Source: a virus | Lineage: Duplodnaviria > Heunggongvirae > Uroviricota > Caudoviricetes | Length of the DNA stretch: 13,223 nucleotides | Strand: one strand, 5' to 3' | Virus record (IMG/VR): IMGVR_UViG_2529293223_000006 | Coordinates: 1-13,223 of that record | Shown here: one piece after another, positions 1-3,000 of the stretch | How the letters are laid out: every line of letters begins with the position of its first letter | Position numbering within the stretch: the first letter of the stretch is position 1 | Position numbers: made by a program

Positions 1-3000
1 ATTCACCGGCATAGCTGTCCAGTCGCGGCGGGTGAATCCTTCAAGCTGACGGTATTCACTGCCGGTAACGCGCCCTTTTTGTTTCACTACTTCCGGCAGT
101 TTTTTCATGGCATACCGGACAACATCATAGGAAGGCATCACCTCCAGCATGTATGGTTCGTCCGCATGGCGACGCTGCCATTCCGCGACAAAATCCTCGT
201 AGGCTTCTGACATGGGTCTGCCATTCGCCTGGCGATACTGCGCCAGAAATTCAGGCAGCCAGCTAATTTCTTCCGGTTTTATTTCGTCGCGCTTTCCTGG
301 TGCCAGTAACAGCAGTCGTTCTGCGGCATTCTGTGCTTTGTTAAACGCAGCTATCCAACGTTTGAGCGTAATTGCGCTCAGAGTTCGCTCTTTTCCTTTA
401 CGGGCATTAGCAGTAATGACCAAAGATTCCAGGCGTTCTTCCAGGTTACCCTGCGCTAACCTCGCCACAATAAAACGTATCGCGCTGGCACAACTGAATC
501 CCGGCTCCTGGCTAATTCGCAGAACTTCACAGACAAGAGCAATGCGTGCTTCTGCAACTTTACGTTGATTTTCCGTAAGCGCATTCAGACGTTCTTCTAC
601 CAGTTGTGGCGAACCGCGATATGCTTCGACCGCCTGAACGGCATCAGGGTTACGCGCCTTCCTGGTAACAACCTTTACCTCAGAAACGTTGTTCTCTCTA
701 GCCACTAACTGTTCCACGTATCGTTCACGTAGTGCCTGTTGAGTAATTTTCGGCAAGCAATCAATGTGATACTCAATGGCTTTTGTACCTTCACGGCGAC
801 GACTTACGTCACTACGTCCATGAGAAAAACGTTGTAATGCCTGACGGATGCCTTTTGTAGTTACAGGCATTCCAGGTACGCCGAGCAGTTCATTTACGGT
901 AACGTACGGCTGCATATCACGACGCCTTCCTGATAAATCCATCGTTACGATACCGACTGGGCCAGATGGTTTCTGGCGGGACACCTATAGCGTCAGAGAT
1001 AACGCGTTCGTATTTTTTGTTTGGCGTACGAACTACCGCTTTCAGTGAATCCTTCGCATAACCAGCATGGAGTGAAAGCTCCCGAAAGGAAGACCACCCA
1101 TTATCTTTGAGTGCCTGCTGAATCATCAGCGAAGGCCAATCGCGGCCAAGATCTTCTCTTTGTCTCATATTTCCTTTACCCTACAAAATTACCCGCGCGG
1201 ATATTCGCGTGGATATCCGAGTGAACAAAGCATAAGAACCAAAAGAACAAAAATCAAGGTATTTTCATTCTTTTCTTAGCTGTTTTGTTTATTTGTTTGA
1301 ATTCAAATAGATACAAAGAAAGGAACTTTTAATGAACAAAGAACCAAATGGTTCTTTTCCTGATGAGAAAAAAGAACCTTTAATTCAGCGGCTGTTTTCT
1401 CTGGTGGAGCGGTATCCATCTCGATCAGAAGCGGCCAGAGCTTGGGGAATTAACATATCAACCCTGAACAACTACTATAAACGCAGACACTTGAATCCAA
1501 TCCCCAGACCCAATCAGCTACAAAAAATTGCAGATAAAGAAGGTGTATCATTGGAGTGGTTAACAACTGGTCAAGGCCAAAAACCAAGTTTTGATGCGAA
1601 TAGCAGCAAAGAACAAAAGAACAAAAGAGCAAAAGAGCAAAAGGCTATGACTGGTGAGCCCCCATCAACCAAAGGGGCTAACATTGATTCAAGTTTATTA
1701 ACTCTCATTGAGATTTTGTCTGACGATGAAAAAAATGCACTTTTTGAAGTATTAGCAAGAAAAGGCGTAGAAACTTTATTACGCTTGTTAGATAAGGAAA
1801 CACAAGAATTGCTGCAACTGGAGGGCCGTAAACGCCTAGCTGCGTTGATGCTAGTCGATATGCCCGACGAGCAAGTCAGAGAGATTTTGGAAGAGATTGA
1901 AGCTAGTATTCTCTCAGAGAGTGTAAAAGCGAAGGTGGGCTAGTTCAATTAGCCCACAGCAAGTGGCTCTTAAAGACATTTAAAATGCTAAAATTGCAGT
2001 AACACGCAGTATCAAATATTTTTTCGTTTTTAGCTTTCTTTGCGATAGTAGTATCAAATCGCATGTTGTGCGCATAACACTGTTTTACGCCATAACTGTT
2101 TGTTTTATCCCATCAAATCCCGTTTAATCCACTTTTCTCCCGGATTTTTCACCAGTATCAAATAATTTACCTCGTCATAATCCCTGTAAAGCATCAGAAT
2201 GATGTCTGCATCCGCCTCTATTTCTCCGGAATTTTTCAGGTCTGAGTTCATGGGACGTTTATTGGGTCTGGACTCCACACCGCGGGAGAGCTGGCTCAGC
2301 GCAATCAACGGAAAACCACCGGATTTTGCCAGGCCTTTAAGCCCCTTTGAGATTTCACCCACGGCAAGGTCATGACGCCCCGTGGTTCGGGTTTTTATCA
2401 GCCCGAGATAATCAACCACCACCAGCGCCGTTTCCGGATGTTTAATCAGATGGTGTTTCGTTGTTGCGCATATCTCATCAATGGTCAGGTTCGCCTGGTC
2501 CACCATCCAGATATTGCGCCCGGTCATCCGCCCCACCCCTTGTGAGAAACGCGCCCAGTCTTCATCTTCAAAGTGAGCCACAGATTTCAGGCGTGATACT
2601 GGCATCCCTCCAGCCGCAGACACCATACGTTCACCAATCTGGATGTTCGCCATCTCCATGGTGAACAGAAGCACACCATGCCCCTGCTCAGTCACCTTGT
2701 CGATGATGTCCAGCGCAAGTTCGGTTTTCCCCATCGAAGGACGAGCCGCAATAAATACCAGGTCGCCGGGCTCCATGCCGCCTGTTTTTGCGTCCAGTTC
2801 ATCAATACCGGTCATCAACGTCCTGGATTTCTCCAGTCCCTGACTCCGGCATTCAACACGCTCAACCACCTCCGGAAGCACATCATCAATATGTACCGAC
2901 TGAATAACGCCCTTTTCCGTCGACAATGAGGCCATCATGTTCTGTGCATCCTTAAGAGCATCTTCAGCTGCTTCACAGGTATGCGCATCGCGTAATTTCT

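What the first reader, a model, noticed from the sequence alone, without database searches (positions are those of the whole stretch)
1944..2177. Three direct AGTATCAAAT repeats in the presumed Mu-like terminal region
The 10-mer occurs at 2008-2017, 2050-2059 and 2154-2163 in the same orientation, inside the roughly 230 bp between the repressor stop and the inferred element end. The number and spacing recall the L1-L3 transposase-binding sites of the Mu left end, although the motif itself differs from the Mu consensus as I recall it.
Basis: partly seen in the sequence, partly recalled or inferred. Interest (0 to 1): 0.5.

Follow-up and report, generated by a model that had tools for sequence, protein, structure and literature searches.

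The report
Transposase-binding repeats at Mu-like prophage end
The three AGTATCAAAT repeats are very probably the transposase-docking sites (the L1, L2 and L3 equivalents) at the left end of a Mu-like transposable prophage that inserted into another prophage's helicase gene: a known kind of feature with a recognition motif different from phage Mu's.

Summary
Observation confirmed. AGTATCAAAT lies at 2008, 2050 and 2154 on the + strand, where about 0.01 copies are expected by chance. A fourth, inverted copy at 12435 sits inside an unrelated, conserved methyltransferase gene and is chance.

Window 1-2179 is the repressor end of a Mu-like prophage (transposase, Ner-like gene, repressor) inserted in a phiP27-type helicase gene. 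The true terminus is 2179, not 2177: the identical end abuts five different flanks in other genomes.

The core TTTGATAC, read inward, sits at nt 18, 122 and 164 from the terminus. Phage Mu's L1-L3 have CGAAA at nt 22, 127 and 167.

In every complete relative examined, the core occurs three times at the left end and three times inverted at the right end, 22 and 35 bp apart.

A sister clade has TTCAAGATA in place of the core at all six positions. That swap tracks two short transposase patches (about residues 140-150 and 183-197). It does not track the repressor, Ner or the enhancer-binding domain.

This is a new member of a known kind, with a non-Mu motif, TA termini and apparently 4-bp target duplications. 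Binding was not tested, and this prophage's other end lies outside the window.

The parts
2154..2163 (+). L1-equivalent core (AGTATCAAAT as written; ATTTGATACT read inward from the terminus), nt 17-26 from the element end
   Evidence: The same position (motif starting at nt 17) is found at L1 in all T-type relatives and at R1 in the YpM5, Tongde and L228 right ends.
2050..2059 (+). L2-equivalent core, nt 121-130 from the end
   Evidence: L1-L2 spacing is 104 bp here and in vB_YpM_5, L017 and L020, 106-107 bp in Tongde and 95 bp in the Mu_JNE clade; it is 105 bp in Mu.
2008..2017 (+). L3-equivalent core, nt 163-172 from the end
   Evidence: L2-L3 spacing is 42 bp here, 52 bp in the Mu_JNE clade and 40 bp in Mu.
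2164..2179 (+). Terminal 16 bp of the element (TATGACGAGGTAAATT read inward); the terminus is base 2179
   Evidence: The identical end abuts five different flanks. Homology to intact helicase genes begins at 2180. The terminal block is conserved among relatives at independent insertion sites.
2107..2150 (-). Spacer block between L1 and L2 that matches phage Mu nt 24-67 at 36 of 44 positions; candidate packaging (pac) signal
   Evidence: The block is present in elements whose small terminase is 99-100% identical to Mu's (YpM5, Tongde) and absent in Mu_JNE, whose small terminase is 57% identical. The location of Mu pac between L1 and L2 is from my memory of the literature, not checked here.
1935..1957 (.). 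Hairpin spanning the repressor stop codon; terminator-like on the - strand
   Evidence: (z = -2.7). vB_YpM_5 carries a compensatory change in the stem (GGCGGGCTA/TAGCCCGC).
1332..1943 (+). c-type repressor gene (203 aa), transcribed toward the end as in Mu
   Evidence: Weak Phage_CI_repr hit just below Pfam's cut-off (21.4 against 22 bits). It is 37-50% identical to the proteins at the same position in Mu-like phages, annotated as C repressor in Pseudomonas phage VW-6B. The exact protein is found in at least 24 contigs.
917..1168 (-). Ner-like regulator gene (83 aa)
   Evidence: Pfam HTH_35. It is 92-93% identical to the Ner of the TTCAAGATA-type elements and 45% identical to that of vB_YpM_5.
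1..930 (-). N-terminal 310 aa of the MuA-family transposase (the gene continues beyond the window start)
   Evidence: Pfam PF02316. hhalign against MuA covers residues 5-151, probability 96%. The full-length 698-aa protein in other copies carries PF09299 and is followed by a MuB-like gene. The motif-linked patches are at residues 140-150 and 183-197.
2180..3346 (-). Disrupted target: a phiP27-type DnaB-like helicase gene lacking its 3' end. Bases 2180-2183 (ATCC) are the predicted target-duplication copy.
   Evidence: The 4-bp duplication is inferred from 7 complete relatives.

Best explanation
The three 10-mers are the conserved recognition cores of three transposase-binding sites, equivalent to L1, L2 and L3, in the left end (attL) of a Mu-like transposable prophage. 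The prophage's left terminus is window base 2179.

Proposed mechanism, by analogy with phage Mu. The N-terminal end-binding domain of the element's own MuA-family transposase binds these sites and three inverted sites at the right end. The bound protomers pair the two ends into a transpososome. This complex nicks the DNA at the termini and joins them to a new target, with help from the MuB-like ATPase encoded next to the transposase.

Shown here: the motif's positions, its conservation, its inversion at the other end in relatives, and its co-variation with a transposase segment. Inferred: that this segment (the I-beta-like helix-turn-helix, about residues 140-197) contacts the core, and the whole assembly pathway.
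For: 1. Context. Window 1-2179 carries transposase, Ner-like and repressor genes in Mu order. It is 87% identical over the terminal 236 bp to the left end of Yersinia phage vB_YpM_5, classed as Muvirus.

2. Terminus. It is mapped to 2179 by five independent insertion flanks of the identical element and by intact target genes.

3. Positions. The core lies at nt 18, 122 and 164, against Mu's CGAAA half-sites at 22, 127 and 167.

4. Unbiased k-mer count. In the 1.6 kb upstream of the transposase gene, every relative with enough upstream DNA except one distant one (L074) carries three copies of TTTGATAC or TTTGATAT at the expected positions, or of TTCAAGATA instead. In most, this is the only 8-mer present three or more times.

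5. Both ends. In vB_YpM_5, Tongde and Mu_JNE082796, the core occurs three times at the left end and three times inverted at the right end. Only 2-4 further copies occur in 37-41 kb. About 30 more right ends show the same layout, with R1-R2 22 bp apart (as in Mu) and R2-R3 35 bp apart.

6. Natural specificity swap. The sister clade has TTCAAGATA at the same six positions, with otherwise similar termini. Motif type tracks transposase residues about 140-150 and 183-197: LSxIxLKRWIAxF against ISRDPLYQWVLKY.

7. Dissociation from other modules. This element's repressor is only 37% identical to that of vB_YpM_5, which has the same motif. Its Ner is 93% identical, and transposase residues 1-110 are 84-90% identical, to those of elements with the other motif.

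8. Mobility. The same element sits at five sites in different genomes, so its ends were recently functional.
Against: No binding or transposition experiment exists for this clade. The other end of this particular prophage is outside the window.

The motif does not match the Mu 22-bp consensus, and no clear second half-site is conserved across all six sites.

The transposase region beyond residue 151 has no detectable sequence similarity to MuA I-beta/I-gamma. The single-sequence structure model was unusable, with pLDDT 41.

The co-variation rests on few independent clades: about three with TTTGATAC and two or three with TTCAAGATA.

The terminus is TA rather than CA, and the R3 copy is not inverted as it is in Mu. 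Details of the Mu mechanism may therefore not transfer.
Confidence: 0.9

Rival explanations
1. The repeats are binding sites for a host architectural protein such as IHF. The motif contains TATCAA, which resembles the WATCAA part of the IHF consensus WATCAANNNNTTR (consensus recalled from memory).
For: L1 and L3 read TATCAA-N4-TTT, one base short of the recalled consensus (sequence). Many transposon ends carry IHF sites (general knowledge).
Against: The sister clade replaces the core with TTCAAGATA, which lacks WATCAA, at all six positions. That replacement co-varies with a phage transposase segment, which a host-factor site would not do. Six copies with 22-bp R1-R2 spacing match Mu transposase sites.
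Confidence: 0.04
2. The repeats are operators for the prophage repressor or Ner, or part of the transpositional enhancer.
For: They lie directly downstream of the repressor gene. For Mu, the ends are reported to carry binding sites for the lysogenic repressor as well as for MuA (PMC3820752).
Against: The motif is shared with vB_YpM_5, whose repressor is only 37% identical and whose Ner is 45% identical. Elements whose Ner is 93% identical carry the other motif. The motif is also present, inverted, at the right end far from the regulatory genes. A different repeat (AAGAAC) fills the repressor-Ner intergenic region.
Confidence: 0.03
3. The repeats are recognition elements for the packaging terminase (pac).
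For: My recollection is that Mu pac lies in the left end between L1 and L2. The repeats flank a block that is conserved with Mu.
Against: Mu_JNE082796 keeps the motif although its small terminase is only 57% identical to Mu's, and it lacks the conserved block. The motif also occurs three times at the right end, where packaging does not start. The block at 2107-2150 is the better pac candidate.
Confidence: 0.02
4. The repeats are a chance recurrence in AT-rich non-coding DNA, with no function.
For: One further exact copy exists in an unrelated gene at 12435.
Against: Only 0.01 copies are expected. The core is invariant at the same positions in clades whose surrounding end sequence is otherwise unalignable.
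Confidence: 0.01

Closest known systems
Phage Mu attL with the MuA-binding sites L1, L2 and L3 (and attR with R1-R3)
   Same: - Three same-orientation sites lie within about 175 bp of the terminus, next to the repressor gene.
- Positions are nearly identical: 18/122/164 here against 22/127/167 in Mu.
- R1-R2 spacing is 22 bp in both.
- The spacer between L1 and L2 is 82% identical to Mu over 44 bp.
- The transposase has a Mu-type I-alpha domain, the Mu-transpos_C domain and a MuB-like partner.

   Different: - The core is TTTGATAC rather than the Mu GTTTCAYT...CGAAA consensus.
- The terminal dinucleotide is TA rather than CA.
- Target duplication appears to be 4 bp in relatives rather than 5 bp.
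- R3 has the same orientation as R1 and R2, whereas Mu R3 reads as the reverse complement.
- The end-binding region of the transposase is not detectably similar to MuA beyond about residue 151.

Yersinia pestis phages vB_YpM_5 and vB_YpM_6 (Muvirus; PMC10434027)
   Same: - The left end is 87% identical over 236 bp, with the three 10-mers identical and at the same spacing.
- Transposase residues 111-310 are 98-100% identical.

   Different: - The immunity module differs: repressor 37% identical, Ner 45%, transposase residues 1-110 42-56%.
- A term search of the paper found no mention of ends or binding sites.
- The GenBank record is circularised, with 79 bp of non-phage DNA between the two ends.
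Mu-like prophages of STEC (Mu_JNE082796 inside Stx phages; probably Sp18-like, which I did not verify)
   Same: - The same TTTGATAC core occurs three times at each end.
- R1-R2-R3 spacing is the same, and the motif starts at nt 17 at L1.

   Different: - The left terminus is TG.
- L1-L2 and L2-L3 spacings are 95 and 52 bp.
- The spacer is unrelated to Mu's.
- Late genes are 51-73% identical to Mu's.

TTCAAGATA-type Mu-like prophages (for example in Shigella flexneri SFBU1023 and E. coli ECMA0423)
   Same: - The terminal sequences are similar (TATGACTAGGTAA..., TAAAGCGCGG...).
- The six-site layout at the right end is the same.
- Ner is 93% identical, and transposase residues 1-110 and 231-310 are 84-100% identical.

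   Different: - A different core sits at all six sites.
- Transposase residues 151-190 are only 40% identical.
- L1-L2 and L2-L3 spacings are 71 and 52 bp.

Membership tests
Mu-type transposable-phage end (attL/attR with multiple transposase-binding sites) | The repeats lie within about 200 bp of the element terminus, adjacent to the repressor / ner / transposase module | tested here: met
   The terminus is mapped to 2179 by five independent flanks. The genes are identified. The repeats lie at nt 17-172.
Mu-type transposable-phage end (attL/attR with multiple transposase-binding sites) | Three sites at the left end with L1...L2-L3 spacing (one site at the terminus, two about 100-150 bp further in) | tested here: met
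   Cores at nt 18, 122 and 164, against Mu CGAAA at 22, 127 and 167. The same layout is found in about 30 relatives.
Mu-type transposable-phage end (attL/attR with multiple transposase-binding sites) | The same motif in inverted orientation at the opposite end of the same element | not testable with these tools
   The right end of this copy is outside the window and could not be fetched. In all complete relatives the criterion is met.
Mu-type transposable-phage end (attL/attR with multiple transposase-binding sites) | A cognate MuA-family DDE transposase and a MuB-like ATPase are encoded next to the end | tested here: met
   PF02316 in the window fragment. hhalign against MuA gives probability 96%. 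Other copies have a full-length 698-aa protein with PF09299, followed by a PF09077 (MuB-like) gene.
Mu-type transposable-phage end (attL/attR with multiple transposase-binding sites) | The transposase physically binds the repeats | not testable with these tools
   The only evidence is indirect: motif type co-varies with transposase residues 140-150 and 183-197.
Phage Mu sensu stricto (MuA specificity) | The sites match the 22-bp MuA consensus (GTTTCAYT-N8-CGAAA type; consensus recalled from memory, Mu sites read from the sequence) | tested here: not met
   The core is TTTGATAC, and no CGAAA or GTTTCA pair occurs at Mu spacing in L1-L3.
Phage Mu sensu stricto (MuA specificity) | 5'-TG...CA-3' termini | tested here: not met
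   The left terminus reads ...CGTCATA-3' on the + strand, which is TA. Right termini in this clade begin with TAAAGCG.
Phage Mu sensu stricto (MuA specificity) | 5-bp target-site duplication (PMC3362531 describes a 5-bp stagger for MuA) | tested here: inconclusive
   This cannot be seen for this copy. Seven complete relatives show only 4 shared bases abutting the termini. The GenBank annotation of LC727881 also records 4 bp.

The most novel reading that the evidence does not exclude
This clade is a naturally orthogonal version of the Mu transposition machine. End recognition has been re-targeted from Mu's consensus to TTTGATAC, and in a sister clade to TTCAAGATA, by exchange of a short I-beta-like recognition segment together with all six end sites. 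The chemistry is also altered: 3'-TA termini instead of CA, and 4-bp instead of 5-bp target duplications. The late genes and the candidate pac signal remain essentially those of Mu.
Probability: 0.5. Interest if true: 0.45.

Novelty: new member of a known kind. Interest (0 to 1): 0.3.

Why it matters
The result marks the exact boundary (base 2179) and orientation of a Mu-like prophage that has disrupted a lambdoid prophage's helicase gene. It shows that the element was recently mobile, because the identical end sits at five different sites.

The comparative set gives a ready-made specificity-swap pair, TTTGATAC against TTCAAGATA, linked to two short transposase patches. This could guide experiments on how MuA-family transposases read their ends, or supply orthogonal Mu-type transposon tools.

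For genome annotation, the core and its spacing give a simple signature for finding both ends of this clade of prophages.

Tried and rejected
- **Element end at 2177 with a canonical CA terminus.** Rejected: five independent flanks and the intact target genes place the end at 2179.
- **The fourth, inverted copy at 12435 as a possible right end.** Rejected: it lies inside a methyltransferase gene that is 99.9% conserved in several E. coli genomes, with no neighbouring copies.
- **The S. flexneri relative (L012) as phage SfMu.** Rejected: the SfMu paper describes a phage more than 90% identical to Mu in most proteins.
- **Megablast of window 1-3400** against the phage and E. coli collections found only the helicase part. 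The distant mode was needed to find relatives.
- **The genome-contig scan** returned only three loci and not the source genome.
- **The viral-contig scans with motif patterns** returned many unrelated hits among the real ones.
- **AlphaFold on the single 310-aa sequence** gave pLDDT 41, which is unusable, so no fold search was run.
- **Similarity of the transposase to MuA beyond residue 151.** hhalign of residues 140-310 against MuA found nothing significant. Neither a Pfam scan at E up to 10 nor a profile search against PDB sequences found I-beta or I-gamma; both found only I-alpha.
- **A conserved second half-site.** None was found across all six sites, only an A/T-rich stretch on the terminus side of the core. 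Whether the core corresponds to Mu's GTTTCA half or its CGAAA half could not be settled from sequence.
- **Literature.** A search for the motif together with 'transposase' found nothing relevant. Term searches of the Yersinia-phage, SfMu and O157 papers found nothing about the ends.

Full report
**Observation**

AGTATCAAAT occurs exactly at 2008-2017, 2050-2059 and 2154-2163 on the + strand. A fourth copy lies at 12435-12444 on the - strand. Shuffled sequence gives 0.01 matches on average, and none of 200 shuffles reaches four. Allowing two mismatches adds no further copy inside 1944-2177.

The fourth copy lies in a class I SAM-dependent methyltransferase gene that is 99.9% identical in several E. 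coli genomes. It has no neighbouring copies, so I treat it as chance.

**What surrounds the repeats**

Left of the repeats are three genes:
- the first 310 codons of a transposase with the Mu DNA-binding domain PF02316 (1-930, - strand);
- a Ner-like HTH_35 gene (917-1168, - strand);
- a 203-aa repressor-like gene (1332-1943, + strand).

This is the order and orientation of the Mu left end. From 2180 rightward the DNA is 89-99% identical to the DnaB-like helicase gene of phage phiP27 and of many E. coli prophages. The Mu-like element therefore interrupts that gene. The ORF 2105-3346 that overlaps the third repeat is only the truncated helicase gene reading into the element.

**The exact end**

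Intact helicase genes align with the window from base 2180 onward and not before.

The exact repressor protein is on record in at least 24 contigs. In them, the left end, identical up to ...CCTCGTCATA, abuts five different flanks: the helicase gene, a flavorubredoxin-type gene, two type VI secretion loci and one further site.

Relatives at independent insertion sites keep the same two bases. The same data show that the element moved recently.

**Position of the repeats relative to the end and to Mu**

Read inward from the terminus, the core TTTGATAC starts at nt 18, 122 and 164. In phage Mu, the CGAAA half-sites of L1, L2 and L3 start at nt 22, 127 and 167, and the other half-sites at nt 8, 115 and 153. 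Each repeat therefore falls inside the interval occupied by a Mu site, and the spacings are 104 and 42 bp against Mu's 105 and 40 bp.

**Relatives**

The closest phage records are Yersinia pestis phages vB_YpM_5 and vB_YpM_6 (Muvirus). Their left end is 87% identical over 236 bp and carries the same three 10-mers at the same spacing.

I counted 8-mers without prior assumption in the 1.6 kb upstream of the transposase gene, in about 40 relatives from IMG/VR and GTDB. Every relative with enough upstream DNA except one distant one (L074) carries, at the expected positions, three copies of one of two motifs:
- TTTGATAC or TTTGATAT (here called the T-type); in most of these elements TTTGATAC is the only 8-mer present three or more times;
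- TTCAAGATA in a second group (here called the S-type).

**The other end**

The right end of this prophage is outside the window. In vB_YpM_5, vB_YpM_Tongde and the Mu-like phage Mu_JNE082796, the core occurs three times at the left end and three times inverted at the right end. Only two to four further copies occur in 37-41 kb.

About 30 further right ends from IMG/VR show the same arrangement:
- R1 starts 16 or 18 nt from the terminus;
- R2 lies 22 bp further in, the same R1-R2 spacing as Mu's CGAAA at nt 22 and 44;
- R3 lies 35 bp beyond R2.

The right termini (TAAAGCGCGC..., TATAGCGCGG..., TGTAGCGCGCG...) resemble Mu's TGAAGCGGCGCAC.... Unlike in Mu, R3 has the same orientation as R1 and R2.

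**A natural specificity swap**

The second group (for example in Shigella flexneri SFBU1023) has very similar termini but carries TTCAAGATA in place of TTTGATAC at L1-L3 and at R1-R3. Its right-end spacing is the same 22 and 35 bp.

| Comparison with this element | Transposase 1-110 | Transposase 111-190 | Transposase 231-310 | Repressor | Ner |
|---|---|---|---|---|---|
| vB_YpM_5-type (same motif) | 42-56% | 98-100% | 98-100% | 37% | 45% |
| S. flexneri SFBU1023-like S-type elements (TTCAAGATA motif) | 84-90% | 40-58% | 98-100% | 50% | 92-93% |

(Transposase; repressor and Ner.)

The residues that separate the two motif types cluster at about 140-150 and 183-197:
- T-type: PGFSCA.AIRF and LSxIxLKRWIAxF;
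- S-type: GNLGRLKAINF and ISRDPLYQWVLKY.

The motif therefore travels with a short part of the transposase. It does not travel with the repressor, Ner or the enhancer-binding I-alpha domain. This is the strongest indirect evidence that the transposase reads the repeats. The number of independent clades is small, so it is not proof.

**Relation of the protein to MuA**

A profile of the family aligns with MuA from I-alpha into the first helices of I-beta: residues 5-151 against MuA 2-131, probability 96%. Beyond that point no similarity is detectable.

A local resemblance between SAITLKRW here and MuA's SASTLRDKY suggests that the 183-197 patch corresponds to the I-beta recognition helix. This is my inference only. 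The single-sequence structure model was unusable.

**Mechanism proposed**

By analogy with Mu, transposase protomers bind L1-L3 and the three inverted right-end sites through the I-beta-like domain. They synapse the ends, nick at the termini and transfer the ends into a target chosen with the MuB-like ATPase.

Positions, inversion, conservation and co-variation are shown. Contact, assembly and chemistry are inferred.

**Rivals**

- **Host IHF sites.** The motif contains TATCAA. This does not explain the swap that co-varies with a phage protein.
- **Repressor or Ner operators.** Excluded by the dissociation described above and by the presence of the motif at the right end.
- **Terminase recognition.** Unlikely, because Mu_JNE082796 keeps the motif although its small terminase is only 57% identical to Mu's.
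- **Chance.** Excluded.

**Comparison with the known**

The feature works like, and is laid out like, Mu attL. It is not a member of Mu's own specificity group:
- the 22-bp consensus is not matched;
- the terminus is TA;
- seven complete relatives show only 4 shared bases at the junctions, which the GenBank annotation of LC727881 also records.

Term searches of the papers on the Yersinia phages, on SfMu and on O157 Mu-like prophages found nothing about the ends. A text search for the motif found nothing relevant.

**Verdict**

This is an ordinary kind of feature, transposase-binding sites of a Mu-like prophage end, in a clade whose ends had apparently not been described. The differences from Mu are modest but real.

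Noticed in passing
window 2176-2183; L009, L020/L228, L054/L178, L022/L183, L015/L287, L019/L250, L040/L253: In this clade the element termini read TA (left TATGAC..., right TAAAGCG... or TATAGCG...) rather than the canonical TG/CA. In 7 of 7 complete elements only 4 bases are duplicated at the junctions (GATG, ATCA, GTGC, GTCG, CTTT, AGGA, GATA), not the 5 bp of Mu.
   Followed up: partly
window 2107-2150: The spacer between L1 and L2 matches phage Mu nt 24-67 at 36 of 44 positions. The block is present in elements whose small terminase is 99-100% identical to Mu's and absent in Mu_JNE082796 (57%). It is therefore a candidate packaging signal.
   Followed up: partly
window 1-1943, compared with L008, L012, L015, L017 and L020: The early region is a mosaic. 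The left end and transposase residues 111-310 are vB_YpM_5-like (87% and 98-100% identical). Ner and transposase residues 1-110 are like those of the TTCAAGATA-type elements (84-93%). The repressor is at most 50% identical to any relative found.
   Followed up: yes
L012, L013, L015, L016, L018, L019, L040, L072 (left ends); L250, L251, L253, L263, L287 (right ends): A sister clade of Mu-like prophages, including one in Shigella flexneri SFBU1023, carries TTCAAGATA at all six end sites instead of TTTGATAC.
   Followed up: yes
window 1935-1957: A 9-10 bp hairpin spans the repressor stop codon and looks like an intrinsic terminator on the - strand (tail CTTCGCTTTT). vB_YpM_5 has a compensatory change in the stem. 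It could block transcription entering from the flank.
   Followed up: partly
window 1234-1377: AAGAAC / GTTCTT repeats (1234, 1243, 1339, 1351, 1372) lie in and next to the repressor-Ner intergenic region. They are candidate operator or enhancer sites.
   Followed up: no
L310-L318 (contigs from NCBI and Logan assemblies): The same prophage, with an identical repressor and an identical left end, sits at five different chromosomal sites in different genomes. This indicates recent transposition.
   Followed up: yes
window 3576-4836 and 6159-7419: Two 1261-bp, 100% identical inverted copies of an IS3-family element flank a 1.3-kb fragment of a tape-measure gene. The left copy also truncates a DnaC-like gene (3343-3624).
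   Followed up: partly
window 9939-11582 (- strand): A gene for an IpaH-type effector (LRR plus NEL E3 ubiquitin ligase domains) lies among tail-fibre, methyltransferase and DinI genes of the degraded lambdoid prophage. This suggests a Shigella or enteroinvasive E. coli source.
   Followed up: no
L008 (MT374853.1) 4654-4732: The GenBank record of vB_YpM_5 is given as circular. It actually joins the right and left Mu-type ends through 79 bp of non-phage sequence, presumably packaged host DNA.
   Followed up: partly
window 12435-12444 (- strand): A fourth exact copy of the 10-mer lies inside a conserved SAM-methyltransferase gene. It is isolated and is judged to be chance.
   Followed up: yes
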